Shown here piece after piece: positions 10,392 to 63,381 of a stretch of 64,000 nucleotides of DNA. The notes beneath the pieces were generated by a model, which did not search any database, had not been told where the DNA came from, and saw nothing but the letters and a program-made list of their open reading frames with translations. Within the stretch, counting starts at the first letter, position 1; each line of letters starts with the position of its first letter. The translations under genes were made by a program, and so were the position numbers. The stretch is from an uncultured Steroidobacter sp. (GTDB lineage: Bacteria; Pseudomonadota; Gammaproteobacteria; Steroidobacterales; Steroidobacteraceae): the NCBI GenBank assembly GCA_964457865.1, contig CAYWHG010000001.1, forward strand, positions 54,193 to 118,192, given 5' to 3'.

Positions 10392-10506
10392 GGTAGTTGT
10401 CATCGTTATATTCATGTCTATATGACGATTGCAGCAGCCGGATTCCTGCCGGCATAGAGGGCGCAGAGCATCTTGCCTACGCGGTAACGACGTACTACTC
10501 TCAGAT

Positions 10507-10525
10507 ATCGGAACGATATACGCAT
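10507..10525. promoter_or_regulatory. Candidate operator (ATGnGAAY-N3-RTTCnCAT family) upstream of SBP-1
   Basis: ATCGGAACGATATACGCAT; reverse complement matches the 19356 site at 14/19. Confidence 0.5.
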
Positions 10526-10688
10526 TTGAGAAGATGCGGTTCTGCGCTGGCACCGGCTATATGTTGTTGGCGCCCTTTGCAGGCCCGATTCGAGTGCCGG
10601 ATCTTCCGTGTGAATTGCTACTGGTTACGTGCGGTAGTCATGTCATCGAAAGAGGTACTGAATGAACAAGTGCGATGTGGCAGGTGGA

Positions 10689-11756
10689 ATGAAAAGCGTC
10701 GTCGTTGCGCTGTGTGCGCTGACGCTCGCAGGGCCGGTAGCAGCGGCGGAGAAGAAGTTGCGTGTCGCAACGCCGACCCCGACTGGACCCGGTACAGCGA
10801 GAATGACGGCCGGCATCGAGCTGGGCTACTTCGCGGAGGAGGGGCTCGAACTCGAACTGCACTCGTATCCAACCACCGTCCCGATCATGAAGGCCGTGGG
10901 CGCGAAAGAGATGGATATTGGCGGCGGTGGCGTGTTTCCCCTGGTTATTGCCAGTCAGCCTGGCAAGGATCGCCTGCCCATCAAGTTTTTCTACAATCAC
11001 CTGCGCTCGTTCAGTTTCGAAGTCGTCGTACCGCCCGAGAGTCCGATCAATAGCATCGCAGACCTGAAGGGCAAGCGGCTCGGACTGCTCTCCCTGACGG
11101 CTCCCTATGCTCAGGTCACCCGGGTCGTGCTGAAGGAGAACGGACTGTCCCCCAGCGACGTCGAACTCATGCCAGTAGGGGAGAACAGAGCCGCTTTCGA
11201 TCTGTTGACGAGTGGCCAGTTCGATGCGTACGAAACATTTATCGGCAACAGCGCCAAGTACGAGGGCGAGGGCAAGAAGCTGAAGCGGTTGCCATACAGT
11301 GACCGGATCAGAAACCTCATGACGTACAGCTACTACGCCCACAACGATACCTTCAAGAACGAGCCGCAGGTTCTCGTCGGCTTCGGGCGGGGAATCGCAA
11401 AGGGCCTGATCACCTGCAAGATTGCTCCTGAGTGGTGCATCAAGACCCTGTGGAAATACTATCCGCATCTCAAGCCTGCGCCCGATGAGATGGAGGAGGG
11501 ATTGAGGCGTCAGGTGTTCACACTGATGTCGACCATGCCGCAGTCCTTTGCGTTTCCTCCTGGTCCGAGGTACTTCGGCCAGTATCCGGAGAATGGATTC
11601 TCGAACCTGATTGACGTCCTCTACGAAGGTGGCGAGATCACGACCCGCGATATCGACCAGACGGCCCTGTACACCAACGAGTTTGTCGATGAGATCAACA
11701 AGTTCGATGTCAGTGCGGTCGAAGCGAAGGCGTGGGAACTCCGGGCGCTCAAGTAG
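10689..11756 (+). CDS. ABC-type substrate-binding protein, NMT1/THI5/SsuA family (SBP-1)
   Basis: Signal peptide, ELGYFAEEGLELEL, SIADLKGKRLG; no permease or ATPase adjacent. Confidence 0.85.
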   Translation: MKSVVVALCALTLAGPVAAAEKKLRVATPTPTGPGTARMTAGIELGYFAEEGLELELHSYPTTVPIMKAVGAKEMDIGGGGVFPLVIASQPGKDRLPIKFFYNHLRSFSFEVVVPPESPINSIADLKGKRLGLLSLTAPYAQVTRVVLKENGLSPSDVELMPVGENRAAFDLLTSGQFDAYETFIGNSAKYEGEGKKLKRLPYSDRIRNLMTYSYYAHNDTFKNEPQVLVGFGRGIAKGLITCKIAPEWCIKTLWKYYPHLKPAPDEMEEGLRRQVFTLMSTMPQSFAFPPGPRYFGQYPENGFSNLIDVLYEGGEITTRDIDQTALYTNEFVDEINKFDVSAVEAKAWELRALK

Positions 11757-11856
11757 ATCGGCTGCCCTGCCCGTCGACAGTCTCGATCATCCGGGTCATC
11801 CCGATTATGCGCCGCTGAGCGATCTGCTCAGCGGCGCGGATTTTCGTCAGCCGTGA

Positions 11857-12393
11857 TCAGTAAGCGGGCTCGTCCTTGCTGAACCGGGTTCCCGTGACCT
11901 TGAGCATCATGGTCAACATCCGGGTAGTTGCACACAGGTCCGCGAGTTCGATGCAGATCGCGTGATCGAAGCGATCTGTCGTTGCATCGAAGGTTGCGTC
12001 CTTGACGTGCCCTGTCTCCAGCAACTCCGAACAGAACTGATGGACTAGCTCTTCGTCAGGCGTCATTCCGGCAGGGCGCTGGCCTGCCGAGAGCGCTTTG
12101 ATCTTGTCGTCAGCGAGTCCCGTGCTCGCGGCATCATCTGTCCGCAGAAACAGATCGGTGGCGCTGTATCGGGCCGATGTCATGAGCATGGCCATGAGTC
12201 GCAGCGGTTCCGGCACATGCAGATTCAATCGCAGATACTGCCAGAGCGGCTGCACGAGACTGGCAACGTCCGGCGAATAGAGCAATGCGGCATAGGCATC
12301 GCCCAGATCAGCGCCGCGGCGCGCGGCGATCTCTGCTGCGATCCGATGCTGACGCGGAGTCATCTGCACGGGTGTGAGAGGTGGATAGCGCAT
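11857..12393 (-). CDS. Carboxymuconolactone decarboxylase (CMD/AhpD)-like protein, degenerate
   Basis: AALLYSPDVA, LRLMAMLMTSARY, MTPDEELVHQFCSELL and IELADL; paralog-like to the adjacent gene. Confidence 0.7.
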   Translation of the reverse strand: MRYPPLTPVQMTPRQHRIAAEIAARRGADLGDAYAALLYSPDVASLVQPLWQYLRLNLHVPEPLRLMAMLMTSARYSATDLFLRTDDAASTGLADDKIKALSAGQRPAGMTPDEELVHQFCSELLETGHVKDATFDATTDRFDHAICIELADLCATTRMLTMMLKVTGTRFSKDEPAY

Positions 12394-12408
12394 GGATGGT
12401 TTTCCTGG

Positions 12409-18045: not shown

Positions 18046-18070
18046 GCGAATTTATTCCTCTGTATCGATG

Positions 18071-19243: not shown

Positions 19244-19290
19244 TGGAGGCAAGCCATCGAATAGACGTGTCGTGCGCATTGTAGCACGAC

Positions 19291-19305
19291 GTTCGATAAT
19301 GAGAC
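19291..19305. promoter_or_regulatory. IclR (PcaR/PobR)-like operator next to a minus-strand extended -10
   Basis: GTTCGATAATGAGAC resembles the recalled PcaR-type GTTCGATAATCGCAC. On the minus strand it is followed by GTGCTACAAT, upstream of the acyl-CoA dehydrogenase operon. Confidence 0.5.
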
Positions 19306-19354
19306 ACAAGTGGAGGACGGGCAAAAGTAAGGCGTGGTCCGCGGCCTATACGTG

Positions 19355-19404
19355 TATGAGAATGTCATTCCCATCTTGACAATGCTACGGTTGAGACAGA
19401 TGCT
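19355..19404 (+). promoter_or_regulatory. Operator palindrome plus sigma70-like promoter of the nicD-like gene
   Basis: ATGAGAATGTCATTCCCAT (19356-19374) immediately before TTGACA (19376-19381)-N17-GATGCT. The 32-bp block is duplicated, inverted, at 55023-55054. Confidence 0.8.
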
Positions 19405-21255: not shown

Positions 21256-22122
21256 ATGACTAAACGGAATTCATCGATGGGCAGTGCTCAACTGAGTGTG
21301 GTTCCGACGGACGAGCAGCGGCCAGTCAAACAGACGGCCGTGAGCAAGGCACGTCGCAACGGGCCCCGCTCGGTCACGCGGCTGCTCAATGTGCTGCGGG
21401 TTCTCGCGCTCTCTGAAGAAAGTGTGAGCCTTGCTCAGCTCAGTCTTGCTACGCGGACCCCGAAGACGAGCCTGCTCGCGTTGCTGCGTACGCTTGTCGA
21501 TGCCGGGTATATCGTGCAGCGAGAAGCCGGATACATGCTCGGTGCCGAGGCATTTGCGCTCGGTTCTGTGATCATTGGACAGCGCCGGCTCGCGCAACTG
21601 GCTCGACCAGTGTTGCAGAGACTGGCGGAGCAGAGCGGCGAGACCATCCTGCTCGCTGAACTCTCTGCGGACTCGACTCATGCGATCTACATCGACAAGG
21701 TCGAGAGCACTCGCGCGATTCGCTTCATCGCAAGTGTGGGCGAGCGTCGACCTCTCTATGGCTCGGCCTGTGGTCGCGCCCTTCTTGCCTTCCAGGACGA
21801 CGCATTTCGCAAGAACTATCTCTCCGGGACCAGGTTCATTCCGCTGAATCCGAACAAGAAGATGATGAGTCGCGGCGAGTTGGAGGGCATCATCAAGGAC
21901 ATCCGGAAGAACTCGCTCGCGACGACCAACGAGGATGTGAACGAAGGGGTGGTTGGCTTCGGCTCGCCAATCTTCGGGCGTGATGGCGAGACCGTGGCGG
22001 CGATCGCAATCGGGGCGCCTGTTGTTCGTGGATTGCAGCAGGCCAAGGTGATGTCACGCCTGGTGAAGGACGGCGCCCGGGAGATTTCGCGGACTCTGGG
22101 ATACATCGAGAAGGATGCCTAG
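21256..22122 (+). CDS. IclR-family transcriptional regulator
   Basis: N-terminal HTH (RSVTRLLNVLRVL..LSLATRTPKTSLLALLRTL), SACGRALLA and GFGSPIF..AAIAIGAP; start uncertain. Confidence 0.9.
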   Translation: MTKRNSSMGSAQLSVVPTDEQRPVKQTAVSKARRNGPRSVTRLLNVLRVLALSEESVSLAQLSLATRTPKTSLLALLRTLVDAGYIVQREAGYMLGAEAFALGSVIIGQRRLAQLARPVLQRLAEQSGETILLAELSADSTHAIYIDKVESTRAIRFIASVGERRPLYGSACGRALLAFQDDAFRKNYLSGTRFIPLNPNKKMMSRGELEGIIKDIRKNSLATTNEDVNEGVVGFGSPIFGRDGETVAAIAIGAPVVRGLQQAKVMSRLVKDGAREISRTLGYIEKDA

Positions 22123-22391: not shown

Positions 22392-22417
22392 TTGACCCTA
22401 AGATCGCATATGTGAAC
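22392..22417 (+). promoter_or_regulatory. -35 (TTGACC) plus everted operator GATCGCATATGTGAAC
   Basis: Near-palindrome matching the sites at 36439, 36474, 50610 and 63366. Confidence 0.55.
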
Positions 22418-22538
22418 ATAGTGCGATTTTTGCATTTGCCTCATATCGACCCTCATACGCACTGCGCCCGGTCGTCAGGCGTAGCGTCCTTTCCGCACGG
22501 CGTTCGGTCACTCAACCGATAAGCATCGAGAACACGCA

Positions 22539-26839: not shown

Positions 26840-26904
26840 TTGACGCGACCAGTTATCAAGAACAGAATGATGTTCTCCTATTGGCACGATTCGCATATGA
26901 GGCC
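26840..26904 (+). promoter_or_regulatory. Promoter of the DUF1592 operon with weak operator-like matches
   Basis: TTGACG-N17-CAGAAT. AACAGAATGATGTTCTCCT (26861-26879, 13/19 to the 19356 site) and ATTCGCATATGAGG (from 26889) share half-sites with the regulon motif. Confidence 0.45.
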
Positions 26905-34662: not shown

Positions 34663-34689
34663 ATGAGAATATCATTCCGAAAAGAGAAC
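34663..34689. promoter_or_regulatory. Operator between HiPIP/cytochrome (-) and SBP-2 (+)
   Basis: ATGAGAATATCATTCCGAA matches the 19356 site at 16/19 and is followed by a third half-site AAGAGAAC. Confidence 0.6.
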
Positions 34690-36438: not shown

Positions 36439-36489
36439 GATCGAATATGTGAACGAGGTACGCAATTGTGATTGTTCGCATATCGGAAC
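36439..36489 (+). promoter_or_regulatory. Tandem operators upstream of the TonB-dependent receptor
   Basis: GATCGAATATGTGAAC (36439-36454) and GTTCGCATATCGGAAC (36474-36489), the latter followed by GTGCTACAAAAT (-10-like). Confidence 0.6.
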
Positions 36490-36519
36490 GGCAGTGCTAC
36501 AAAATTTTGGGGAGGCGTT

Positions 36520-41058: not shown

Positions 41059-41351
41059 ACCTTCCGAAATCTCGTCGACTGCCCGGCCGTCGGTCGGGCT
41101 GTCGGCATATTTCCGATCGCCGACTCCGTCGTGAAGCTCTTCAACGAAGGGAAGTCGCTCCGCTGTCTTGCATTCGCTGTTCCGCGGTCGTCGCGTGCAA
41201 TCGTCTGCTTCTTTGTGCGATGCGACGGTATATGGGCGGTGCCGGAAGCGTCAGTTACGATCTTCCACTATGGGAACGACGGTGCTAAATTCCGACCACG
41301 CACTCATCCGAGTGGTTCACTTCAACCAGCTGAAATCCGCAGGAGCGTCTT

Positions 41352-50609: not shown

Positions 50610-50636
50610 GATCGCATAGGTGAATGATATTCGCAT
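50610..50636. promoter_or_regulatory. Three-half-site operator between leuB-like (-) and SBP-3 (+)
   Basis: GATCGCAT-AGGTGAAT-GAT-ATTCGCAT; 50618-50636 matches the 19356 site at 15/19 (reverse complement). Confidence 0.6.
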
Positions 50637-53359: not shown

Positions 53360-53670
53360 CGTCGGGCCGCCAGCCGCCAACTTTCACCAGGAAGTCCTTG
53401 ATCTATTTTCCGTTCGCCCTGAGCCAGTCGAAGGGTGAATTCCACGACGTTAACCCTGGATGGCTCGCGCCTTCTGAGAGAAATTCCGTGCATACCCGCC
53501 TTGTTCCTGATGGCAGACGGTGTCCTGCGAAAATTGGCAGCGATGATTTCTACAGGCATGCCGGCTTTCGCAAGGTCGCGCAGCTGACACAGTGCTTCGG
53601 AAGTCCACGCTTTCGCCGGCGAAGAGTCCAGGCTGCGAGCCATGTGTGCGAAGGAATCAAATGACCTCAT
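53356..53670 (-). CDS. Small hypothetical protein with a GcrA/Myb-like HTH pattern
   Basis: WTSEALCQLRDLAKAGMPVEIIAANFRRTPSAIRNKAGMHGISL; AGGA RBS upstream of ATG 53670. Confidence 0.55.
   Translation of the reverse strand: MRSFDSFAHMARSLDSSPAKAWTSEALCQLRDLAKAGMPVEIIAANFRRTPSAIRNKAGMHGISLRRREPSRVNVVEFTLRLAQGERKIDQGLPGESWRLAARR
53411..53439. repeat. REP-like palindromic element (single copy here)
   Basis: CGTTCGCCCTGAGCCAGTCGAAGGGTGAA forms a hairpin resembling the recalled CCGTTCGCCCTGAGCyTGTCGAAGGG repeat type. Confidence 0.4.
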
Positions 53671-53774
53671 CGATGTTCTTTCCTGGAATGTCCAATGCAA
53701 TTCTCAATCTGACTCGTTAAGGCTATTGCTCGCGACACCATGTTTCCCGCCGCAGGTTTGCCGCCAGATTGGAT

Positions 53775-54971
53775 CTAGAGGTCGACCGACGTGGCGTCGT
53801 AGTTGTAGAGCCAGTCGCGCAGGTCCAGCTGTTTTTCCGATTCCCGGTCGATGTACTGGCTGGCCTTCTGCGGATCTGCGAGATCCGGATGATGCAGCCG
53901 GTGTTGATTCGCCCCGGAGGCCTCCACGATGGAGGTCGTGCGCGGGATTCGCAGTTGCTCGTAACGCTGCAATGCGTGGGGCAGGTCGCTCGCGTACTTC
54001 TGCATGCAGCGAGCCAGCACATAGCCATCTTCGATGGCCATGTTGGCGCCGAAACCGAGATAGGGCAGGGTGGGATGGCATGCATCGCCCAGCAGGGTGA
54101 CCCGTCCACTTGACCAGTGCGGCATCGGCGGCCGCAGAAACAGTGCCCACTTGTAGGGGACATCGATGTTCCGGATCAGGGTCTGGATCTGCTCGTGCCA
54201 GCCGGAGAAATCAGCGCTGATCTCTTCGAGCGTTCCCTTCTCGATCCATGACTCCACCTGCCAGTCGCTGCGTTCGATGTGTCCGACGATATTCACCAGT
54301 TCGCCGCGCCGGATCGGATAGCAGACGAAGTGGCCGTTCGGCGCCATCCAGTTCTGTGTTCCGACCAGACGGTTCTTCTCGGGCAGGCTATCCATCGACA
54401 CGATGCCGCGCCAGGAGATGCAGCCGGTAAATGTCGCCGGTGTCTCGCCGAACAACTGACGGCGGATCCGCGAATGCAGGCCATCGGCGCCGATCAGTGC
54501 GTCGCCAGAGAACGTTCTGCCATCCTCGAGGACGACGGTCGCCGAGCTTTCCGACTGTTCGAAGCCCTTGACCCGCGCACTCAGATGAATCGCGTCGGGC
54601 TTCCTGCTGCGGACGGCCTTCACGAGGATGTCGTGCAGGTCCGCGCGATGAATATAGATGTTCGCGAATCCGTAATGCTCGATGAGGTAGGAGGTCAGGG
54701 TCGGCGTGGAGGCGCGATACCCCGTATTCCACACCAGCATTTCTCTGCCCTGCGGCAGTACCCACACGGACTCGATCTGTTCCTTCAGACCCAGCGCGAA
54801 CAGGACCCGCAGTCCGGTCGGGCTGATCTGAACGCCCGCGCCGACCTCGCGCAGGTTCGCGGTCTGTTCGAACACATCGACATCCATTCCCTTGTCGAGG
54901 CAGGCCAGCGCCGCGGTCAGGCCGCCGATGCCCGCGCCTGCGATCAAGACGTGCTTTTTCCTGGTGCTCAT
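53775..54971 (-). CDS. Group A FAD-dependent monooxygenase (NicC/salicylate hydroxylase family)
   Basis: IAGAGIGGL, GAGVQISP, IGADGLHSRIR and LLGDACHP; start re-assigned to ATG 54971. Confidence 0.9.
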   Translation of the reverse strand: MSTRKKHVLIAGAGIGGLTAALACLDKGMDVDVFEQTANLREVGAGVQISPTGLRVLFALGLKEQIESVWVLPQGREMLVWNTGYRASTPTLTSYLIEHYGFANIYIHRADLHDILVKAVRSRKPDAIHLSARVKGFEQSESSATVVLEDGRTFSGDALIGADGLHSRIRRQLFGETPATFTGCISWRGIVSMDSLPEKNRLVGTQNWMAPNGHFVCYPIRRGELVNIVGHIERSDWQVESWIEKGTLEEISADFSGWHEQIQTLIRNIDVPYKWALFLRPPMPHWSSGRVTLLGDACHPTLPYLGFGANMAIEDGYVLARCMQKYASDLPHALQRYEQLRIPRTTSIVEASGANQHRLHHPDLADPQKASQYIDRESEKQLDLRDWLYNYDATSVDL

Positions 54972-55003
54972 GCCACTTGTCGGATGCCAATGTGAGGGAG
55001 GCA

Positions 55004-55054
55004 AGCATCCGGTGCCCGTGCGAGCATTGTCAAGATGGGAATGTCATTCTCATA
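55004..55054 (-). promoter_or_regulatory. Operator plus promoter of the monooxygenase; near-identical to the nicD promoter
   Basis: ATGGGAATGTCATTCTCAT (55035-55053). On the minus strand TTGACA-N18-GATGCT. 31/32 identity with the reverse complement of 19355-19386. Confidence 0.8.
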
Positions 55055-55121
55055 ACCGTACGCGCTATACTACGGGTCAGTTGGATCTGTCCTCGCAGCC
55101 TGAGCGCGACAGGAGCATTTC

Positions 55122-57521
55122 GTGGCCCACCTCGCATCCTTCGATTCCACAGCGCCGGTCCTCGGCCAGCCCGTTCCGCGCCGCGAGGATGAGCGCCTGC
55201 TGACCGGGCGCGGTCGCTTCGTCGATGACCTGAAGCTGCCGGGGATGGTGCACATGGCGGTGGTGCGCAGTCCCGTGGCGCACGCGCGGATACGCGCAAT
55301 CAATGTTGATGCAGCGCGATCGCTGCCTGGTGTGCTCGCGGTGATCAGTGCGCAGGACCTGGAGGGTCATGCACACCACATGCCCGTCTCGGATACGTGG
55401 GTGATGCCGGGGTACAACCGCTATCTGCAATGGCCGATCGCGCGGGATGTCGTGCGTTTTGTCGGTGAGCCCATCGTGGCGGTGGCGGCGGAAAACCGCA
55501 GCATTGCAGAGGATGCATGCGGCCTGGTCGATATCGACTTCGAAATCCTGGATCCCGTGACCAACATCGATGAGGCATTGACCGACAGGGTGGTGCTGCA
55601 TGAGTCGGCGGGAACGAACCTGGCCTGCCACTATGTCGTCGGACGCGGCGATGCGGACAAGGCATTCGAGAATCCGCACTACACGCGCAAGGAAATATTC
55701 CGCGTTCATCGGCATACCGGGATGGCGCTCGAGACTCGCGGCTACGTCGCGCAGTGGGATCCGCTGGCCAGGAAGATGACCTGCTGGGGGGCGAACAAAC
55801 GGCCGTGGAACACGCGCGATACGCTGGCGTCCATGCTGAAGCTTGAGCGTGAGGACATCACCCTCATCGAGAACGACACGGGGGGCAACTTCGGCACCCG
55901 CGGACATTTCTATCCAGAGAACCTCATGGTGGCGTTCCTCGCGATGCGTCTGGAACGGCCCGTGAAGTATGTTGAAGATCGTCGCGAGAACATGATGGCG
56001 ACGAATCATTCGCGCGAGGTGAGTTGCGAACTGGAGATCGCTGTCGCGAAGAACGGAAGAATCGAAGGTCTGCGCGCGCGCGTCTTCTGCGATCTCGGCG
56101 CCTATTGCACCGGTGGCGGTTCCGCCGTCGTACCGGCAAAGACGGTGCAGTTCATACCTGGCCCGTATCACATCGACAACTACAAGTGCGAACTGAGCGT
56201 GCTCATCACGAACAAGACGCCTGTCGGCGCGTATCGTGGACCGGGGCGCTATGAGGCGGGATTCTGCATCGAGCGGTTGCTCGACATGGTGGCGAAGGAT
56301 CTGGACCTGGATCCGGTCGAGTTGCGCAGGAACAATCTCATTCGCACCGAGCAGATGCCTTACAACGGCGGCGTGCTCGTGCCGTATCTCGGCGAGAGTC
56401 CTTACGACACGGGCGACTATCTGCAGACGTTCAATCGCGCGCTCGAACTGATCGATTACGAAGCCATCAAGGCGAAGTCCGGAAAGCTGATCGACGGCAA
56501 GTTCCACGGGGTCGCCGCGAGTTGCTACGTCGACTCGACCGGCATGGGGCCTTCCGAGGAAGCGCGCATCGTCGTCAATGCGCCCGACGACATCGAGCTG
56601 TATGTCGGAACCTCCGCAAACGGCCAGGGTGTGGAGACCACGATGGCGCAGGTGGCGGCCGACCTGCTCGGCGTTCCCTATGAACTGATCAAGGTGTTTG
56701 CAGGCAGCACCCACTACGTCGAGAACGGCAACGGTCACGGTCATAGCCGTGCGGCGGTGCAGGGCGGCAGTGCGGTGTTCATCGCGACGAACAATCTGAT
56801 TAAGCAGATGCTGGAGGCGGCAGCGCTGCGCTACAACGAACCGGTCGAGCATCTGGAGTACCGTCGCGGCGCCATACATCGCACGACGGATGATGTGCCG
56901 TTGGCCGCATTCGACGATTGCGTGAACGCCATCGTCGGGGAACTGGAGCGTCCTGAGCTGCTGCGCGCGGCAGGCCGCTACGTCAACAGCAAGCTGACCT
57001 ACAGCTACGGAGCGCAGGCAGCCCATGTCACGGTGGATCCGGAGACCTCGATCGTCGAGGTAGTGCGCTTCCTGACGGTCGAAGATGTCGGTCGCGCACT
57101 CAATCCCCTCATCGTTCACGGTCAGTCGATCGGTGCTTCCGTGCAGGGACTGAGCGGCACCTTCCTGGACGAATTTGTCTACGACAGTGCAGGGCAACTG
57201 CTTACAGGCAGCTTTGCCGACTATCTGGTGGCGACGGCCACGGATTTTCCACGGGTCGAAGCCGAGACCTTGCAGAACGCCCCGTCGAAATCGAACCCGC
57301 TGGGCGCCAAGGGTGCAGGCGAAGGCGCCATGTCGACGACCGGGGCCGTGCTCGCAAATGCGGTATCCAATGCATTGGCGTCCCTGAACGTGCAGATCCA
57401 CGATCTGCCGATGTCGCCGAGCAATCTGTCGCGGCTGATCCGCGCGGCCAGGGCAGGGCGTCCGGCGCGGCCGGCGACCGGCGACGATGCGCGATTTGGC
57501 ATACGCCACGAGTCCGTCTGA
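55122..57521 (+). CDS. Xanthine dehydrogenase-family molybdopterin hydroxylase large subunit
   Basis: RREDERLLTGRGRFVDD, GGNFGTRG, AYRGPGR, GQGVET and GAKGAGEG; GTG start after AGGAG. Confidence 0.92.
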   Translation: MAHLASFDSTAPVLGQPVPRREDERLLTGRGRFVDDLKLPGMVHMAVVRSPVAHARIRAINVDAARSLPGVLAVISAQDLEGHAHHMPVSDTWVMPGYNRYLQWPIARDVVRFVGEPIVAVAAENRSIAEDACGLVDIDFEILDPVTNIDEALTDRVVLHESAGTNLACHYVVGRGDADKAFENPHYTRKEIFRVHRHTGMALETRGYVAQWDPLARKMTCWGANKRPWNTRDTLASMLKLEREDITLIENDTGGNFGTRGHFYPENLMVAFLAMRLERPVKYVEDRRENMMATNHSREVSCELEIAVAKNGRIEGLRARVFCDLGAYCTGGGSAVVPAKTVQFIPGPYHIDNYKCELSVLITNKTPVGAYRGPGRYEAGFCIERLLDMVAKDLDLDPVELRRNNLIRTEQMPYNGGVLVPYLGESPYDTGDYLQTFNRALELIDYEAIKAKSGKLIDGKFHGVAASCYVDSTGMGPSEEARIVVNAPDDIELYVGTSANGQGVETTMAQVAADLLGVPYELIKVFAGSTHYVENGNGHGHSRAAVQGGSAVFIATNNLIKQMLEAAALRYNEPVEHLEYRRGAIHRTTDDVPLAAFDDCVNAIVGELERPELLRAAGRYVNSKLTYSYGAQAAHVTVDPETSIVEVVRFLTVEDVGRALNPLIVHGQSIGASVQGLSGTFLDEFVYDSAGQLLTGSFADYLVATATDFPRVEAETLQNAPSKSNPLGAKGAGEGAMSTTGAVLANAVSNALASLNVQIHDLPMSPSNLSRLIRAARAGRPARPATGDDARFGIRHESV

Positions 57522-57571
57522 GGTTCGTGATGCGGCGCACTGCGGATTTCGGCACGTCAGTCCGTATTTGC

Positions 57572-57603
57572 TTGACTCACCAATAACAGAATGTCATTTT
57601 CAT
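57572..57603 (+). promoter_or_regulatory. -35 (TTGACT) and operator upstream of the nicX-like gene
   Basis: AACAGAATGTCATTTTCAT (57585-57603), 15/19 to the 19356 site. Confidence 0.6.
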
Positions 57604-57702
57604 ACGCGCACGCACTGGAACTGTGTCGTCTGCCCTGAATTGCAGGTGCGCCGCACCGGAAGGGTGCCGCCTCGCCCAGGCGACGGGCTAATCGATGGGG
57701 TA

Positions 57703-58761
57703 ATGATCTTGGCCAACATGATCGATGTGGAAATGCTTCGCGTATTCACCGCAGAGCTTGAACTCTGCAAGGTGAAGCCGGACGAAACGGTTGCCGTGCT
57801 GAGTGCGAGCGGGACGCCGAACGGCTATGCGCAGGCCTTCATGGTTGCGGCGGGCAGTCTTGGTGCCACGACCTTTCACATCGAGGTCCCGGATCATGCG
57901 ACAGCGAATCGGGCGGGTGTGTACGGCAAGACGCCGCTCGCGGGAAATCGCGCAGCCATCGATTCATTGAAGTCGGCAGATCTGGTGATCGATCTGATGG
58001 GGCTGTTGTTCTCGCCGGAGCAGGCGGAAATTCAGAGTGCCGGTACGCGCATTCTGCGAGTCGGCGAACCGATGCATGTCCTCAAGCAGATGTTTCCGAC
58101 TGCGGAGCAGCGGCGTCGCGTCGAGGCGGGCGCCGAGATGATGCGCGCCGCACGGGAACTGCGCGTGACTTCCGAGGCCGGCACCGACGTGCGATACAGG
58201 CTGGGGCAGTATCCGGTCGTTACGCAGTACGGGTACACCGATACGCCGGGCCGCTGGGATCACTTCCCTTCCGCGTTTCTGTTTACGCAGGGCAACGATG
58301 ACGGGGTCGAGGGGACCGTAGTGGTTCAGCCGGGCGACATCCTCTGCGCCTTCAAAAAGTACGTACAGGACCCGGTCCGCCTGACCATCAAGGCGGGACG
58401 CGTCGCCGAGATCGATGGTCCCGGAATGGATGCTGCGTTGCTTCGCGACTACATCACGAGCTTCAACGATCCACGCGCATATGCGATCTCGCATATCGGC
58501 TGGGGGATGCATGAGCGCGCAACGTGGTACCACATGCTCGCGACGACCAGACTGCGTGAGGAGAGAATCATGAATGCGCTCTCCTTCTATGGAAACGTGC
58601 TGTTCTCCACCGGTCCCAACACAGAGGTGGGCGGAACCAACGATACGGCGTGTCACATCGATATTCCGATGCGCAAGTGCAGCCTGTTTCTCGATGGGCG
58701 GCAGATCGTGGCGGCGGGCAAGGTTGTCGTGCCGGAGCTGAAGGCGGCACTCGATTCGTAG
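57703..58761 (+). CDS. nicX: 2,5-dihydroxypyridine 5,6-dioxygenase-like non-heme Fe dioxygenase
   Basis: LGQYP..YGY.D.PGRWDH, SHIGWG, FYGNVLFSTGPNTEVGG and CHIDIP match recalled P. putida NicX; start 57703 or 57718. Confidence 0.87.
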   Translation: MILANMIDVEMLRVFTAELELCKVKPDETVAVLSASGTPNGYAQAFMVAAGSLGATTFHIEVPDHATANRAGVYGKTPLAGNRAAIDSLKSADLVIDLMGLLFSPEQAEIQSAGTRILRVGEPMHVLKQMFPTAEQRRRVEAGAEMMRAARELRVTSEAGTDVRYRLGQYPVVTQYGYTDTPGRWDHFPSAFLFTQGNDDGVEGTVVVQPGDILCAFKKYVQDPVRLTIKAGRVAEIDGPGMDAALLRDYITSFNDPRAYAISHIGWGMHERATWYHMLATTRLREERIMNALSFYGNVLFSTGPNTEVGGTNDTACHIDIPMRKCSLFLDGRQIVAAGKVVVPELKAALDS

Positions 58762-58770
58762 GATTCACCA

Positions 58771-59670
58771 GTGCGCATGACGGGTCTTGAAGAGCTCGTG
58801 TCGATACTGGACATCGAGGTCGTCGGTCAGAACCAGTTTCGTGGCGCCCAGCCAGGTGAAGAACGCCGTCGCGTTTTTGGCGGGCAGGTAGTTGCGCAGG
58901 CACTGATGGCGGCCTATCGAACGGTCGAGTCGCGTTCGGTTCATTCCCTGCAGTGCTATTTCGTGCGCGGAGGCAATCCGTCGATACCCATCGACTATGA
59001 GGTCGAGATCCTGCGCGACGGTCGGAGTTTCTCGATTCGTCGGGTGCTCGCGAAGCAAGAGGCTAAGGCGATCTTTTGCATGAGTTGCTCGTTCCACGCC
59101 AGCGAAGCTGGCATGGCGCATCAGCCATGTATGCCGGACGTGCCGGGGCCAGAGCAATTGCCCGACTTGCGGGAGCTGCCGGGTTCGATACACGGTGAGA
59201 TACCGCCGGTGCTGGCCCGTCTGCTGCGGGAGGATCGGCCGATTGAATTCAAGCCGGTTGACCTTGATGGGATGATGACCCGGACCATGAAAGACGAAGT
59301 GCGACACTTCTGGATCCGTGCGAAGGGGAAGCTGCCGGATGTACCGTCGGTGCATCATGCCGTGCTGGCGTACGCCTCCGACATGTCTCTGCTCGATGTT
59401 GCCTTGCACAAGCACGGTCACGGGTTGTTCGATGGATCGCACGAGACCGCCAGCCTCGATCATGTGATGTGGTTTCACCGCGCTTTCCGCGCGGATGAAT
59501 GGGTTCTGTATTCGCAGGAGAGCCCCAGCCGGGCCTTCTCGCGCGGCTTCACGCGCGGTGCGATTTTCTCGCGCAGCGGCGACTTGCTGGTGTCGGTGAG
59601 CCAGGAAGGATTGTTGCGGGAGAACGCCGCAGCCTTGCGCATGCAAACGCCCCCGATGGGAGTGAACTGA
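58771..59670 (+). CDS. tesB: Acyl-CoA thioesterase II
   Basis: RVFGGQVVAQAL, LRDGRSFS, LAYASDMSLL and ASLDHVMWFHR. Confidence 0.92.
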   Translation: MRMTGLEELVSILDIEVVGQNQFRGAQPGEERRRVFGGQVVAQALMAAYRTVESRSVHSLQCYFVRGGNPSIPIDYEVEILRDGRSFSIRRVLAKQEAKAIFCMSCSFHASEAGMAHQPCMPDVPGPEQLPDLRELPGSIHGEIPPVLARLLREDRPIEFKPVDLDGMMTRTMKDEVRHFWIRAKGKLPDVPSVHHAVLAYASDMSLLDVALHKHGHGLFDGSHETASLDHVMWFHRAFRADEWVLYSQESPSRAFSRGFTRGAIFSRSGDLLVSVSQEGLLRENAAALRMQTPPMGVN

Positions 59671-61364
59671 TGCGTAATGCGGCCCCCCGACCCTGGGTAG
59701 ACGCCTTTCCCCGTGCTGCTCGCTGGGATGCGCCCATCGAAGCGCTGTCACTGCCTGAACTGCTCGATCGTGCCGTCAGCCGCTCCAGCGACCGGCCGGC
59801 ATTGACCTATGGCTCGACGACGCTGACGTACCGGCAGCTTGCCGGGCTCGTCGATGCCCTGGCTACGGGCTTTCGACAGATCGGCATTCGGCAAGGCGAG
59901 CACGTCGCTCTGCTGCTTCCAAACACGCTTTACCATCCCATCAGTTTCTTCGCGCTGATGAAGCTGGGTGCGCGCGTCGTGCATTTGAGCCCGATGGATG
60001 CGCCACGGGAGCTTGCCTACAAGGTCAAGGACTCGGAAGTAAGGACGCTGATCGCCACCAACACGCCCAGTGTGCTGGCGGCGGCAGACGCACTTCTGGC
60101 CCAGGGTGCCATCGAGCGCATGGTGGTCGGTGACGAGGAGCATTGGGGCGCCGGTCAATCCACCGCGCCGATTCGCATTGCCACGGGCGTCGTACCACTG
60201 CTCGATCTGCTGGTGGATACCGCAGACAGGCAGTGGCCGGTGTTGTCGCCGGACGATCTCGCAGTGATCCAGTACACCGGCGGTACGACAGGTCTGCCGA
60301 AGGGCGCGATGCTCACGCATGCCAATCTCAGCGCTGCGGTGTCGATGTATCACGCCGTAACGGCCGATGCGGATTTCCGACCCGGTGAAGAGCGTGTCAT
60401 CTGCGTGGCGCCGCTGTTTCACATCTTCGGATTGTCCGGAATCATGCTGGCGCACCTCGTGCACGGCAATGAGATCGTGCTGTTTCCTCGCTTCGATGCA
60501 GAGACCATCGTGCACGAGATTGAAGTGAACAGGGCGAGCATCATGCCGGGCGTCCCGACCATGTGGATTGCCATCGCCAATCTTCCTGACATCCACAAGC
60601 GCGACCTGAGTTCGCTGAAGGATGCCCGTTCGGGCGGCGCGCCGATGCCGAGCGATGTTCAGAAGCGACTCGAGCAGAAGATCGGTCGGCGGATTCTCGG
60701 CGGTTGGGGCATGACGGAGCTGTCACCCGCCGGCACGCGGCTGGTGCCTGATCAGCCGACCCCGCCCGGACTGATCGGTATTCCCTACGCGGGAATCGAC
60801 ATGCGAATCGTCTCGCTCGAGGATCCGCTGCGTATATTGCCCGCCGGAGAAGTTGGCGAGATTGCCGTCAGTGGGCCGAACGTGTTCAAGGGATACTGGA
60901 ACAAGCCCGAGGCGACAGCCGAAGCGTTCGCGGGAGGCTACTTCCTGACGGGCGACATTGGCTGCATGGACGAGACGGGTCAGTTCACGATCGTTGATCG
61001 AAAGAAGAACATGATCATTTCGTCCGGGTTCAATGTGTATCCCGCGTCCATCGAAAACGCGCTCTACGAGCATCCCGATGTGCGCGAGGTGATCGTCATC
61101 GGCGTGCCGGATCCGTATCGGGGTCAGGCAGCGAAGGCGTTCATTACGCTCAAGGCCGGTGCGCGTGAGATGTCGCTCGATGAGCTGCGGGAGTTTCTGA
61201 AGGAACGGATCGGGCGTCATGAGATGCCTGCGGCCGTCGAGTATCGGGACAGCCTGCCGCGCAGTCCGGCGGGCAAGCTGCTGGCGAAGGTGCTGCTCGA
61301 TGAGGAGAAGGCGAACGTGCAGGCGAAAGCGCTGTTGAACCCCGCCGCAACCAGGAGCGCCTAG
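59670..61364 (+). CDS. pimA: Dicarboxylate/long-chain acyl-CoA ligase (PimA-like)
   Basis: RWDAPI, HPISFF..GARVVHLSPMD, QYTGGTTGLPKGAMLTH, GWGMTE and DRKKNMIISSGFNVYP. Confidence 0.78.
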   Translation: MRNAAPRPWVDAFPRAARWDAPIEALSLPELLDRAVSRSSDRPALTYGSTTLTYRQLAGLVDALATGFRQIGIRQGEHVALLLPNTLYHPISFFALMKLGARVVHLSPMDAPRELAYKVKDSEVRTLIATNTPSVLAAADALLAQGAIERMVVGDEEHWGAGQSTAPIRIATGVVPLLDLLVDTADRQWPVLSPDDLAVIQYTGGTTGLPKGAMLTHANLSAAVSMYHAVTADADFRPGEERVICVAPLFHIFGLSGIMLAHLVHGNEIVLFPRFDAETIVHEIEVNRASIMPGVPTMWIAIANLPDIHKRDLSSLKDARSGGAPMPSDVQKRLEQKIGRRILGGWGMTELSPAGTRLVPDQPTPPGLIGIPYAGIDMRIVSLEDPLRILPAGEVGEIAVSGPNVFKGYWNKPEATAEAFAGGYFLTGDIGCMDETGQFTIVDRKKNMIISSGFNVYPASIENALYEHPDVREVIVIGVPDPYRGQAAKAFITLKAGAREMSLDELREFLKERIGRHEMPAAVEYRDSLPRSPAGKLLAKVLLDEEKANVQAKALLNPAATRSA

Positions 61365-61380
61365 GCGCACTGTCGTAACG

Positions 61381-61409
61381 GTGCGTCGCGCGGACCCTGC
61401 GCGATGCAC
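61381..61409. terminator. Intergenic hairpin after pimA
   Basis: GTGCGTCGCGC-N7-GCGCGATGCAC, 11-bp stem with one G-U pair. Confidence 0.35.
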
Positions 61410-61440
61410 GATTCATCATTCAATCAGGTAGAGACAGCGT

Positions 61441-62337
61441 ATGAGACTTTGCGAAGGGCGTGTAGCAATCGTCACTGGCGCCGGCCGTGGTGTGGGGCGC
61501 GAGCATGCGCTTCTTCTTGCACGGCATGGCGCCAGGGTCGTGGTCAACGATCTCGGTGCGGACGTGAATGGCATCGGCGCCGACTCGTCACCCGCCAACG
61601 AAGTCGTCGCCCGGATCAGGAGCGAGGGCGGAGAGGCGATAGCCAATGGCGATGACGTTTCAAGCTGGGCGGGCGCGAAGAGTCTTATCGATCAGGCCGT
61701 CGACACATTCGGCACGCTGGATGTGCTGGTCAACAACGCCGGCATTCTGCGCGATCGCATGTTCGTGAACATGACGGAGCAGGAGTGGGACGCCGTGATC
61801 AGCGTACATCTGAAGGGTACATTCGCGCCGACCAAGCACGCCGTCGACTATTGGCGCGCCAGGAGCAAAAAGACGGGAGAGCCTGTCAACGCCCGCATCA
61901 TCAACACCAGTTCGACCTCGGGCGTGTTCGGTAACGTCGGTCAATCCAACTACGGGGCCGCCAAAGCGGGCGTTGCGGCGCTCACCGTCATTCTGGCGCG
62001 GGAACTGTTGCGGCTCGGAATTACGGTCAATGCCATTGCGCCCAGCGCCGTGACACGCATGACCGAAGCGCTGCGCGAGCGAACCGAGGAACAGAAGGAG
62101 GCCGGAGATCCCAAGTGGATAGCGCCGCTGGTCACGTACCTCGCGAGCGCGGATTCGCGCGACATCACCGGACGCGTGATTCAGATCGGCATGGGGATTT
62201 TCTCGGTCATGGAGGGTTGGCATCGCGGACCAGAGCATGCGCCAATCCTCGATCCGGTGGAGCTCGGTCCGGTCCTCAGGGACATGGCGGGCCGCGCCCG
62301 CCGCAATGCGGGGATGGATGGACTAGACCTGGATTGA
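61441..62337 (+). CDS. SDR oxidoreductase (hydroxyacyl-CoA dehydrogenase-like)
   Basis: TGAGRGVG, VVVNDLG, NNAGILRD and YGAAKAG. Confidence 0.9.
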   Translation: MRLCEGRVAIVTGAGRGVGREHALLLARHGARVVVNDLGADVNGIGADSSPANEVVARIRSEGGEAIANGDDVSSWAGAKSLIDQAVDTFGTLDVLVNNAGILRDRMFVNMTEQEWDAVISVHLKGTFAPTKHAVDYWRARSKKTGEPVNARIINTSSTSGVFGNVGQSNYGAAKAGVAALTVILARELLRLGITVNAIAPSAVTRMTEALRERTEEQKEAGDPKWIAPLVTYLASADSRDITGRVIQIGMGIFSVMEGWHRGPEHAPILDPVELGPVLRDMAGRARRNAGMDGLDLD

Positions 62338-62357
62338 GGACCGGGAGCGCAGCACTG

Positions 62358-62846
62358 ATGAGCACCATCCGATTCCCGGTCGAGGCGACGCACGTACTGA
62401 TGTTTGCGCGGGCGATCGGCGATCCCAATCCCGTCTACTCGAACGAGGAAGCCGCGAAGGAAACCGAGGCCGCCGGACTCATTGCGCCACCGACCTTCGT
62501 GGAAGCGGTGGCGCAGTTTGATCCCGACTACCGGCTCAGGCCGAAACCGGGCGAAGCGTGGTTCGGGTCGGGCAGGACGCCGAGCGGCATTGAAGGAAAG
62601 CCGTCCACTGGCAGAGCCCTGCATGCCGAGCAGGAGTACACCTACTTTCGTCCGATTCGACCGGGCGAGGCGCTCAACTGCGAACGCAAGGAAGGCGCCG
62701 TGTGGGAGAAGCACAGCAAGCGCGGCGGCAAGCTGAGTTTTCGCGAGCGGATTGCCGAGTTCCGCGATGAGGCGGGCGAACTGGTCGTGCTGGCGCGCGC
62801 GGTGCTCGTCACTCCCGAACGTGTCCCCGACGCCGATTCAAAATAG
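62358..62846 (+). CDS. MaoC-like hot-dog protein (MaoC_dehydrat_N type)
   Basis: FARAIGDPNPVY, APPTF and LHAEQEYTYFRP; ATG at 62358. Confidence 0.8.
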   Translation: MSTIRFPVEATHVLMFARAIGDPNPVYSNEEAAKETEAAGLIAPPTFVEAVAQFDPDYRLRPKPGEAWFGSGRTPSGIEGKPSTGRALHAEQEYTYFRPIRPGEALNCERKEGAVWEKHSKRGGKLSFRERIAEFRDEAGELVVLARAVLVTPERVPDADSK

Positions 62847-62866
62847 GGATTGGTGCGAGAACACCC

Positions 62867-63286
62867 ATGTCACTGAAAGCTTCGCAGCTGCGGATTGCCG
62901 ACACTCATGCCGAATGTGTTGTCGAGAACCTGAGCCGGACCCAGATCGTCCAGTACGCCGGCGCCGCCGGCGACTACAATCCGATTCACACGGATGAGAT
63001 CTACGCGCTCCATGCGGGCCACAAAGGCGTGTTTGCCCACGGCATGCTGACCATGGGGCTGACGGGAAAGATGCTGACGAACTACGTCGGCGATGCACGA
63101 CTGGTGAAGTTCGGCGTGCGCTTCACTCATCAGGTGTGGCCAGGCGACACACTCACCGCCACCGCAACGGTCACCGCGCTCAGGAACGTGGACAGCCAGG
63201 ATCTCGTCGACCTCGCCATCGAAACGGTCAATCAGGATGGCAAGCAAGTGCTGACCGGGTACGCGACCGCGCGAATCGATCCGTGA
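62867..63286 (+). CDS. MaoC-family (R)-enoyl-CoA hydratase
   Basis: YAGAAGDYNPIH and FAHGMLTMG. Confidence 0.88.
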   Translation: MSLKASQLRIADTHAECVVENLSRTQIVQYAGAAGDYNPIHTDEIYALHAGHKGVFAHGMLTMGLTGKMLTNYVGDARLVKFGVRFTHQVWPGDTLTATATVTALRNVDSQDLVDLAIETVNQDGKQVLTGYATARIDP

Positions 63287-63365
63287 GTTCCCGCGGGAGT
63301 CGTCGGCTTTCCGGGAAGCAATCCACGGCAGTGGCGTCAGCGCCCTTTGTAACACTGATCGATGA

Positions 63366-63381
63366 GGTCGCATATGGGAAC
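63366..63381. promoter_or_regulatory. Everted operator GGTCGCATATGGGAAC upstream of the second ICL-family gene
   Basis: Matches the 22402, 36439 and 36474 sites and is followed by GTGCTAC as at 36494. Confidence 0.55.

What the first reader, a model, noticed from the sequence alone, without database searches (positions are those of the whole stretch)
10499..63381. Window-wide regulon built from one half-site (ATGnGAAY) in two geometries
Seen: inverted sites ATGnGAAY-N3-RTTCnCAT at 19356, 55035, 34663, 57585, 50618, 10507 and weakly 26861. Everted sites RTTCnCAT-ATGnGAAY occur at 22402, 36439, 36474, 50610 and 63366. Several loci carry three half-sites (50610, 34663, 36439, 10499). All are intergenic, and many abut -35 or -10 elements. 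Known: IclR-family regulators such as PcaU bind multi-half-site operators. Inference: the IclR gene at 21256 (or a paralog) represses genes over more than 50 kb, including all three SBPs, the TonB receptor, leuB-like, the ICL paralog, the nic-like genes and possibly the DUF1592 operon.
Basis: partly seen in the sequence, partly recalled or inferred. Interest (0 to 1): 0.75.

Follow-up and report, generated by a model that had tools for sequence, protein, structure and literature searches.

The report
Three-box IclR operators across catabolic island
The repeated ATGnGAAY words are real binding sites of a textbook "three-box" type for a neighbouring IclR-family regulator and its paralog. They sit on about 16 promoters of an ~83-kb island of pyridine-type (nicotinate-like) breakdown genes, so this is a well-supported but known kind of gene switch.

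Summary
In the window, pairs of the half-site ATGNGAAY are enriched at only two geometries: inverted with a 3-nt spacer and everted with no spacer. The same two peaks appear independently in the syntenic region of Peristeroidobacter soli.

The two geometries are two views of one 27-bp operator, [RTTCGCAT][ATGnGAAY]-N3-[RTTCnCAT]. It has three boxes of alternating direction, with the central box strongest.

All 16 sites in the genome lie in non-coding DNA, and all lie in one ~83-kb island (13 in the window, 3 beyond its right end). Almost nothing else in the 5.3-Mb genome scores.

Sites recur at orthologous promoters in P. soli. One lies beside a 67%-identical IclR in a compact metagenomic nic-like cluster. 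Similar sites lie beside a 45%-identical IclR in Burkholderia multivorans.

The island has a second IclR paralog (73% identical, same recognition helix) outside the window.

Three-box IclR operators are already described (Suvorova & Gelfand 2021; PcaU, PobR, HmgR). This is therefore a new member of a known kind. It is notable only for the size of the regulon and the paired regulators. Repression is likely at sites that overlap the -10/+1 but is unproven. The effector is unknown.

The parts
10499..10525 (+). Operator TCTCAGAT ATCGGAAC gat ATACGCAT, upstream of NMT1-type SBP1 (10662-11756). It marks the left edge of the island.
   Evidence: The promoter-like CTTGCCT-N17-TACTCT abuts it.
19272..19298 (+). 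Weaker extra site (about 20 bits) in the 5' leader of the acyl-CoA dehydrogenase operon (minus strand).
   Evidence: The P. soli ortholog is 27 codons shorter, so this stretch is probably non-coding.
19348..19382 (+). Operator ATACGTGT ATGAGAAT gtc ATTCCCAT followed by CTTGACAA (-35). It lies in the divergent region between the ACAD / CoA-transferase / aconitase-like / ICL-like operon (minus strand) and the nicD-like / isochorismatase-like / iclR-1 operon (plus strand).
   Evidence: The P. soli orthologous site is at 161375.
21277..22122 (+). iclR-1, an IclR-family regulator (HTH_IclR + IclR_C). It is the last gene of the operon under the 19348 operator. The likely start is M at 21277.
22402..22428 (+). 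Operator GATCGCAT ATGTGAAC ata GTGCGATT on the -10 (TAAGAT) of the M28 peptidase / alpha-beta hydrolase / MFS_3 operon.
26861..26887 (-). Operator GTGCCAAT AGGAGAAC atc ATTCTGTT (minus-strand reading). It overlaps TTGACG-N17-CAGAAT of the DUF1592/DUF1552 operon. Weak extra boxes lie at 26776 and 26889.
   Evidence: The P. soli orthologous site is at 168042.
34663..34689 (-). Operator GTTCTCTT TTCGGAAT gat ATTCTCAT (minus-strand reading), upstream of SBP2. TACAGT lies 4 nt beyond the outer box on the plus strand.
   Evidence: The P. soli site 181207 lies between iclR-1 and SBP2.
36439..36465 (+). Operator GATCGAAT ATGTGAAC gag GTACGCAA on the -10 (TAGGAT) of the TonB-receptor / MFS_2 operon. 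It is the first of a tandem pair.
   Evidence: The P. soli site at 234956 matches 25/27.
36474..36500 (+). Second tandem site; essentially a two-box everted palindrome, GTTCGCAT ATCGGAAC, just before the ribosome-binding site of the TonB receptor.
   Evidence: The P. soli counterpart is at 234991.
41262..41288 (+). Weaker site CTTCCACT ATGGGAAC gac GGTGCTAA upstream of the 2OG-Fe(II) oxygenase (41352). It matches the P. soli site at 141077 at 27/27.
50610..50636 (+). Best-scoring operator, GATCGCAT AGGTGAAT gat ATTCGCAT, with three strong boxes. It lies in the divergent region between the leuB-like dehydrogenase (minus strand) and SBP3 / CoxG / EamA (plus strand). The -10 TATGAT overlaps box 1.
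55035..55061 (-). Operator GTACGGTT ATGAGAAT gac ATTCCCAT (minus-strand reading), followed by CTTGACAA. It lies in the divergent region between the FAD monooxygenase (minus strand) and Mo-hydroxylase large subunit 1 (plus strand). It is a near-duplicate of the 19348 promoter/operator.
   Evidence: The P. soli site at 195684 matches 23/27.
57585..57611 (-). Operator GTGCGCGT ATGAAAAT gac ATTCTGTT (minus-strand reading). It lies between TTGACT (-35) and the start of the nicX-like gene (57703-58761).
   Evidence: The P. soli site at 199779 matches 24/27. The NicX assignment comes from L027.
63366..63392 (+). Operator GGTCGCAT ATGGGAAC att GTGCTACT, upstream of the second PEP-mutase/ICL-family gene (63425 onward) and the aconitase-like gene beyond the window.
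   Evidence: The P. soli site is at 205464.

Best explanation
The sites are operators of one uncharacterised clade of IclR-family regulators.

The operator. Each is about 27 bp: three 8-bp boxes of one kind (ATGnGAAY) in alternating direction, spaced 0 and 3 nt, sometimes with a weak fourth box. The everted pair matches the IclR 'group 1' type and the inverted pair the 'group 2' type.

The regulators (inferred). They are most likely bound by oligomers, probably tetramers, of IclR-1 (window 21277-22122) and of its recent paralog IclR-2 (C1:147132-147980, outside the window). IclR-2 has the same recognition helix.

The regulon. Together the sites put about 16 promoters and roughly 60 genes of an ~83-kb island under one control. 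The island encodes N-heterocycle, nicotinate-like breakdown: Mo hydroxylases, flavin monooxygenases, NicX-like and NicD-like enzymes, amidases, NMT1-type binding proteins, a TonB receptor, and CoA-dependent lower-pathway genes.

Direction of control (inferred). Where the first box overlaps the -10 hexamer, the bound protein should block RNA polymerase, and release by a pathway substrate or intermediate would induce the genes. Sites at or upstream of a -35 probably also repress but might activate.

Shown: the motif, its geometry, its confinement to the island, its non-coding position, its conservation, and its co-occurrence with the regulator.

Inferred: binding, oligomeric state, sign of regulation, and effector.
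For: Enrichment and geometry:
- Enrichment and spacing specificity in this window and independently in P. soli.
- The three boxes share one profile: ATgCGAAC, ATGnGAAC and ATgaGaAt, with r = 0.85-0.91. The fourth box is weak at 3.1 bits.

Location:
- A genome-wide PWM scan places every strong non-coding hit in C1:64.7-143.1 kb.
- With a PWM built only from P. soli sites, the top 12 hits in the 5.3-Mb genome all fall in the island.

Conservation:
- Sites are kept at orthologous promoters for 10 of 11 loci, although the island is rearranged.
- Core identity is 78% against 65% for the flanks.

Link to the regulator:
- iclR-1 lies under a site in this genome (19348), in P. soli (181207) and in the compact metagenomic cluster L027. 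In L027 IclR is the only regulator and a single 28.5-bit site lies in the divergent region.
- A 45%-identical B. multivorans IclR with the same helix, TPKTSLLALLRAL, has 3- and 4-box sites with the same spacing.
- The motif fits GTNCG-N6-CGNAC and the three-box type described for IclR regulators (PMC8222616).

Promoter position:
- cTTGaCc-N17/18-TAnnnT promoters have a -10 that ends in the first 3 nt of box 1, at about 14 sites in two genomes.
Against: - No binding or expression data exist.
- The strict sigma-70 scan calls none of the proposed promoters, so positions relative to the transcription start are inferred from weak hexamers.
- IclR-2 has no site upstream of its own gene in either genome, so its part in the regulon is inferred only from its identical DNA-binding region.
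- Several inverted-dominant sites lie upstream of a perfect TTGACA. That position is also used by IclR-type activators.
- The P. soli sites were found with a PWM derived from this window, so that scan is not fully independent. The IUPAC geometry test is independent.
Confidence: 0.82

Rival explanations
1. Two specificities. IclR-1 binds the inverted-dominant sites (GAAT-gwc-ATTC core with an outer GTRCG box) on the core nic-like promoters. IclR-2 binds the everted-dominant sites (TCGMAT|ATGTGAAC) on the transporter and lower-pathway promoters. That would make two overlapping but separate regulons.
For: The ancestral-looking compact cluster L027 has one regulator and one inverted-dominant site. 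Inverted-dominant sites cluster at nicD-like, FAD-MO / Mo-LSU1, nicX-like and SBP2 next to iclR-1. Everted-dominant sites sit at other operons.
Against: The DNA-binding regions of the paralogs are almost identical, and no substitution separates the two paralog lines consistently. The difference in score between box 1 and box 3 is a continuum, not two classes. Site 50610 has all three boxes strong.
Confidence: 0.2
2. Dual-function regulator of the PcaU/PobR type. At sites centred upstream of or on a -35 the IclR activates transcription when its effector is bound, while it represses at sites on the -10/+1 and at its own promoter.
For: The IclR family contains activators and dual regulators (PMC8222616). 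At four promoters a good -10 (TATACT, TACAAT or TACAGT) lies 4 nt from the outer box and has no recognisable -35, because the boxes occupy that place. At four others the operator sits just upstream of TTGACA paired with a poor -10, GATGCT.
Against: The same boxes lie on the -10/+1 at most other promoters, and one protein with one effector response most simply gives repression everywhere. No transcription starts are known.
Confidence: 0.25
3. The motif belongs to a regulator of another family encoded elsewhere, and the IclR genes are bystanders.
For: No direct binding evidence exists. Several island ORFs have no Pfam hit.
Against: The motif matches the IclR consensus. It travels with IclR homologs in four separate contexts, including an 8-gene cluster whose only regulator is IclR. 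The MarR gene at 8256 belongs to the neighbouring hpa genes, which carry no sites.
Confidence: 0.05
4. Chance similarity, or copies of a repeat or duplicated promoter without regulatory function.
For: The 19348 and 55035 regions are near-identical over about 32 bp, so at least one site arose by duplication.
Against: The other sites share only the boxes, not their flanks. The spacing-specific enrichment is replicated in a second genome. All sites are non-coding, although about 79% of the contig is coding even after 150 nt is trimmed from each ORF's 5' end. Sites are conserved at orthologous promoters.
Confidence: 0.01

Closest known systems
Three-box IclR-family binding motifs (Suvorova & Gelfand 2021, PMC8222616: 32 orthologous groups, 199 regulators)
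   Same: Boxes of one kind in alternating direction. One pair gives a group-1 palindrome (here GTTCGCAT|ATGCGAAC, close to subgroup iv NGTYCRAW4TYGRACN and to GTNCG-N6-CGNAC). The other pair gives a group-2-like palindrome (GAAY-N3-RTTC). Sites lie next to the regulator gene and sometimes occur in tandem.
   Different: This regulator clade is not among named or curated ones: its best NCBIfam scores are far below the cut-offs. The regulon is much larger than the 'own gene plus one or two adjacent operons' that the paper calls typical. Two paralogs share the recognition helix.
PcaU / PobR (Acinetobacter baylyi) and HmgR (Pseudomonas putida) operators
   Same: Experimentally studied IclR regulators whose palindrome of the GTNCG...CGNAC type needs or carries an extra third half-site, as summarised in PMC8222616. 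They control catabolic gene clusters and their own genes from divergent regions.
   Different: Their substrates are aromatic acids, and they control one or two promoters each. IclR-1 scores 110 bits against the PcaR/PcaU/PobR subfamily model, whose cut-off is 284.75. PcaU and PobR act mainly as activators; here most sites sit on the -10/+1.
TtgV and other tetrameric IclR repressors binding tandem dyads about two helical turns apart
   Same: The dyads of boxes 1|2 and boxes 3|4 are 19 bp apart. That falls within the 18-22 nt tandem spacing taken as the signature of tetramer binding (PMC8222616). The B. multivorans homolog has a full four-box site.
   Different: Here the fourth box is weak (3.1 bits) and often coincides with a -35 hexamer. 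Oligomeric state was not tested. TtgV is a distant homolog (E = 6.5e-11).
Nicotinate (nic) and related pyridine-ring clusters of Pseudomonas, Bordetella and Alcaligenes
   Same: The core gene set is the same: a Mo hydroxylase, a flavin monooxygenase, a NicX-type ring-cleavage dioxygenase, a NicD-like hydrolase and an isochorismatase-family amidase-like protein.
   Different: From my own knowledge, those clusters are controlled by MarR- or TetR-type regulators. None of the 14 papers retrieved with NicX / maleamate / dihydroxypyridine mentions IclR. The substrate here is unknown, and the island is far larger.

Membership tests
IclR-family three-box operator (PMC8222616) | Box sequence of the IclR type (GTNCG-N5-6-CGNAC, or group 1 GKTYCRYW3-4RYGRAMC) | tested here: met
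   The everted consensus GTTCG-CATATG-CGAAC fits GTNCG-N6-CGNAC. It matches 10 of the 12 defined positions of subgroup iv, GTYCRA-W4-TYGRAC.
IclR-family three-box operator (PMC8222616) | Three boxes of alternating direction, with one pair group-1-like and the other group-2-like | tested here: met
   The box profiles correlate at r = 0.85-0.91. All three boxes score positive at most of the 36 sites. Spacing is fixed at 0 and 3 nt.
IclR-family three-box operator (PMC8222616) | Sites lie upstream of the regulator's own gene or operon and of adjacent catabolic operons, and are conserved across genomes | tested here: met
   Own genome 19348, P. soli 181207, L027 5210 and B. multivorans L028 6994/7147. 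Orthologous promoters keep their sites.
IclR-family three-box operator (PMC8222616) | Physical binding of the IclR protein to the boxes | not testable with these tools
   Needs EMSA, footprinting or DAP-seq.
IclR protein family | An N-terminal HTH_IclR domain and a C-terminal IclR_C domain, both above the Pfam thresholds | tested here: met
   PF09339 scores 32.5 bits (cut-off 22) and PF01614 scores 116 bits (cut-off 24). PDB relatives include 1mkm, 8eju and 2xrn.
PcaR/PcaU/PobR subfamily (TIGR02431) | Score at or above the curated cut-off of the subfamily model | tested here: not met
   110.3 bits against a cut-off of 284.75. The best model, BhcR, scores 127 against 350.
Tetramer-type tandem IclR operator | Two full palindromes 18-22 nt apart, centre to centre | tested here: inconclusive
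   The spacing would be 19 nt, but the fourth box carries only 3.1 bits. A full four-box site is seen in the B. multivorans homolog.
nic-type 2,5-dihydroxypyridine pathway cluster | A NicX-type dioxygenase together with a Mo hydroxylase, a flavin monooxygenase, a deformylase-like hydrolase and an amidase-like protein | tested here: inconclusive
   Domain-level matches only. The nicX-like gene has no hit in the Pfam copy used here, but it is 73% identical to the L027 protein that carries PF26233 NicX. No maleate isomerase was looked for, and the substrate is unknown.

The most novel reading that the evidence does not exclude
Two recently duplicated IclR sensors with the same DNA-reading helix but diverged effector domains share one set of about 16 operators, as competing or mixed tetramers. 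Two different pathway signals would then be integrated at every promoter. The balance of the boxes would set the output through the two alternative dimer modes proposed for this family: everted-dominant sites on the -10/+1, and inverted-dominant sites at or upstream of the -35. If so, this island and its cultured relative P. soli JW-3 would be a natural test bed for that unproven idea.
Probability: 0.15. Interest if true: 0.65.

Novelty: new member of a known kind. Interest (0 to 1): 0.38.

Why it matters
- It gives a confident map of regulator, operators and regulon for a large, uncharacterised island of N-heterocycle breakdown genes in Steroidobacter-like soil bacteria. It ties together about 60 genes whose link would otherwise be unclear, including the DUF1592/DUF1552 operon, the orphan NMT1-type binding proteins and a TonB receptor.
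- It would add an IclR-type regulator to the known MarR/TetR control of nic-like pathways.
- It offers a graded natural series of sites: two-box everted, three-box, and inverted-dominant. With these, the 'alternative dimerisation' hypothesis for IclR proteins could be tested.
- It does not reveal a new kind of mechanism.

Tried and rejected
- The strict sigma-70 scan of 50400-63500 found none of the promoters next to the operators. The promoter positions therefore rest on my own reading of fixed, conserved weak hexamers.
- A clean split into two site classes was looked for and not found. The difference in score between box 1 and box 3 is continuous.
- An autoregulatory site upstream of IclR-2 was sought in both genomes and is absent.
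- Orthologs of the regulator were sought in 60 relatives and in 400 genomes sampled across the class. Only P. soli (G013) and one incomplete genome (G022) have them. The 8.7-kb G022 contig has no strong site.
- A loose pattern, GRGAATNNNATTCYN with 1 mismatch, was too unspecific to be useful.
- The three hits above 20 bits outside contig C1 (on C286, C87 and C95) lie inside ORFs and were set aside as chance.
- NCBIfam gave no equivalog-level names for the key enzymes except the leuB-like gene, so the substrate could not be named.
- No structure prediction or read mapping was run, because neither would bear on the motif question.

Full report
OBSERVATION

- With up to 2 mismatches, the inverted pattern ATGNGAAY-N3-RTTCNCAT occurs 6 times against 0.69 expected.
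- The everted pattern RTTCNCAT|ATGNGAAY occurs 8 times against 0.31 expected. No shuffle reached either count.
- The single half-site is only mildly enriched, 27 against 17, so the signal lies in the geometry.
- A spacing control confirms this. Among all spacings from 0 to 12, inverted pairs peak only at N3 (6; others 0-2) and everted pairs only at N0 (8; others 0-3).
- The same test, which uses no PWM, on 160 kb of the syntenic region of Peristeroidobacter soli gives 15 at N3 (others 0-4) and 10 at N0 (others 0-4).

ONE OPERATOR, NOT TWO SITE TYPES

When aligned, nearly every site has the form [RTTCGCAT][ATGnGAAY]-N3-[RTTCnCAT].

- Over 36 non-coding sites from the two genomes, the three boxes have the same profile: ATgCGAAC, ATGnGAAC and ATgaGaAt, with pairwise r = 0.85-0.91.
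- The central box is the strongest. A possible fourth box carries only 3.1 bits.
- The relative strength of the outer boxes varies continuously. At one end are sites where the inverted pair dominates (19348, 55035). In the middle are sites with three good boxes (50610). At the other end are pure two-box everted sites (36474).
- I found no clean division into two classes.

CONFINEMENT TO ONE ISLAND

The window is C1:54193-118192 of a 5.34-Mb assembly in 376 contigs.

- A 27-bp PWM finds the window's sites plus three more non-coding sites farther along the same contig: C1:129648 and 129950 (divergent acyl-CoA dehydrogenase and second Mo-hydroxylase large subunit) and C1:143070.
- Only three other hits above 20 bits exist in the genome, all inside ORFs.
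- With a PWM built only from P. soli sites, the top 12 hits in the whole genome are all in the island.
- On the 157.8-kb contig, every hit of 11 bits or more between 64.7 and 143.1 kb is non-coding. About 79% of the contig is coding even after 150 nt is trimmed from each ORF start.
- Two further sites emerged: 41262, which matches its P. soli counterpart at 27/27, and a weaker one at 19272.

WHAT IS REGULATED

Pfam annotation shows a homoprotocatechuate cluster with a MarR gene at 1-10 kb, without sites. From 10.5 kb onward there is an island that runs to about C1:148 kb. It encodes:

- four NMT1-type binding proteins with one ABC system, a TonB receptor and MFS transporters;
- two Mo-hydroxylase large subunits with shared small subunits and maturation genes;
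- two flavin monooxygenases, a nicX-like gene, nicD-like hydrolases, an isochorismatase-family protein and an amidase;
- two aconitase-like and two PEP-mutase/ICL-family enzymes, a leuB-like dehydrogenase, and acyl-CoA dehydrogenases, CoA transferases and a CoA ligase;
- a DUF1592/DUF1552 operon.

The core resembles nicotinate-type pathways that run through a dihydroxypyridine. The actual substrate is unknown, and NCBIfam gave no equivalog-level names except for the leuB-like gene.

THE REGULATOR

- The ORF at 21187-22122 carries HTH_IclR and IclR_C domains. Alignment suggests the start is at 21277.
- It is the last gene of the nicD-like / isochorismatase-like operon under the 19348 operator.
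- A paralog that is 73% identical (IclR-2) lies at C1:147132-147980, at the far end of the island.
- The DNA-binding regions of the two paralogs are almost identical (recognition helix TPKTSLLALLRTL), and no substitution separates the two paralog lines consistently.
- A tree places IclR-2 as a recent duplicate. IclR-2 has no site upstream of its own gene in either genome.

COMPARATIVE EVIDENCE

- The closest named genome is Peristeroidobacter soli JW-3. It has both paralogs and a rearranged but orthologous island, with reciprocal best hits of 65-90%.
- Scanning that region finds 23 sites of 17 bits or more, 22 of them non-coding. Orthologous promoters keep sites for 10 of 11 loci; the eleventh gene has no ortholog there.
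- Operator cores are 78% identical against 65% for the flanks.
- Exact matches to the everted core are concentrated in the island in both genomes: 4 of 4 here and 5 of 7 in P. soli.
- The regulator clade is rare. Only seven proteins of 50% identity or more were found among 5.8 billion, and none in 400 genomes sampled across the class.
- One of the seven lies on a 9.9-kb metagenomic contig of 53% GC (L027). There an eight-gene cluster reads SBP, NicX and Mo large subunit, divergent from flavin monooxygenase, hydrolase, isochorismatase-like protein and IclR. It has exactly one strong site (28.5 bits: GTGCGACT TTGAGAAC atc ATTCTCAT), and that site lies in the divergent region.
- A 45%-identical IclR in Burkholderia multivorans has the same recognition helix. 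It has three- and four-box sites with the same 0/3/0 spacing in its own divergent region.

This co-occurrence in four contexts, together with the fit to the family consensus, is the basis for assigning the motif to this IclR clade.

POSITION RELATIVE TO PROMOTERS (INFERRED)

- At about 14 everted-dominant sites in the two genomes, a cTTGaCc-N17/18-TAnnnT arrangement places the last 3 nt of the -10 on the first 3 nt of box 1. The operator would then cover roughly -9 to +18, which is a repressor position.
- At the nicD-like and flavin-monooxygenase promoters, the boxes end at a perfect TTGACA followed after 17-18 nt by GATGCT. This is conserved in both genomes.
- On the other side of several of these sites, a good -10 (TATACT, TACAAT or TACAGT) lies 4 nt beyond the outer box.
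- At the nicX-like and DUF1592 promoters, the boxes lie between the -35 and the start.
- The strict promoter scan called none of these, and no transcription starts are known. Repression is likely at the -10/+1 sites. Activation at the -35-proximal sites cannot be excluded.

COMPARISON WITH WHAT IS KNOWN

Suvorova & Gelfand (2021, PMC8222616) describe the following:

- two IclR motif types that share a half-site but differ in its arrangement;
- three-box sites with alternating boxes in 32 orthologous groups, with PcaU, PobR and HmgR as experimental precedents;
- tandem sites 18-22 nt apart, attributed to tetramers.

The present everted pair fits GTNCG-N6-CGNAC and their subgroup iv. The inverted pair fits the group-2 arrangement.

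What is less usual:

- The regulon has about 16 operators over 83 kb, whereas the family typically controls its own gene plus one or two operons.
- Two paralogs share one recognition helix.
- The pathway is a nic-like one, for which none of the retrieved NicX / maleamate papers mentions IclR.

Earlier notes of this scan report similar three-box IclR regulons in other genomes. One also reports different box arrangements at different promoter positions. These are unchecked leads, not support.

VERDICT

This is a new member of a known kind, of moderate interest.

Noticed in passing
outside the window: C1:147132-147980 (locus L012): A second IclR paralog lies at the far end of the island. It is 73% identical to the one in the window and has the same recognition helix. 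No operator lies upstream of it in this genome or in P. soli.
   Followed up: yes
window 19348-19386 and 55023-55061: The promoter/operator of the nicD-like operon and that of the flavin monooxygenase are near-identical over about 32 bp, in opposite orientation. Both include TTGACA and, 17-18 nt on, GATGCT. The same pair exists in P. soli, so the duplication is old.
   Followed up: partly
locus L027 (Logan SRR27751816 contig, 9921 bp): A compact eight-gene version of the core cluster (SBP, NicX, Mo large subunit, flavin monooxygenase, hydrolase, isochorismatase-like protein, IclR) with a single operator, in an organism of 53% GC. It looks like the ancestral form of the island.
   Followed up: partly
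locus L028 6994-7180 (Burkholderia multivorans CP046344.1): A 45%-identical IclR homolog sits in an MFS / CoA-transferase / IclR operon, divergent from enoyl-CoA hydratase and acyl-CoA dehydrogenase genes. Two three-/four-box sites with the same 0/3/0 spacing lie between them.
   Followed up: partly
window 1-10000: A homoprotocatechuate-type cluster (FAA hydrolases, CHMI, aldehyde dehydrogenase, DHDPS-like aldolase, LigB-type dioxygenase) with its own MarR gene at 8256-8816. It has no operator sites and no orthologs in the P. soli island. The island boundary lies at about 10.4 kb.
   Followed up: partly
window 55122-57521, and outside the window at C1:130008-137856: Mo-hydroxylase large subunit 1 has no small or medium subunit next to it. 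The only FAD-binding and 2Fe-2S subunit genes found lie about 25 kb away, beside large subunit 2, together with XdhC and CobS/CobT-like maturation genes. The two large subunits may share them.
   Followed up: no
window 26776-26904: The DUF1592 promoter region carries, besides the 26861 operator, two weak everted pairs (26776 and 26889). The pair at 26889 is offset by 1 nt from the outer box, giving a possible five-box array. This is not conserved in P. soli.
   Followed up: partly
whole island (C1:64.7-148 kb): The island and its regulators occur in only 3 of 37 sampled genomes of the genus (this one, G013 and G022) and in none of 400 genomes sampled across the class. In P. soli it is rearranged in operon-sized modules, each of which keeps its operator.
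   Followed up: partly
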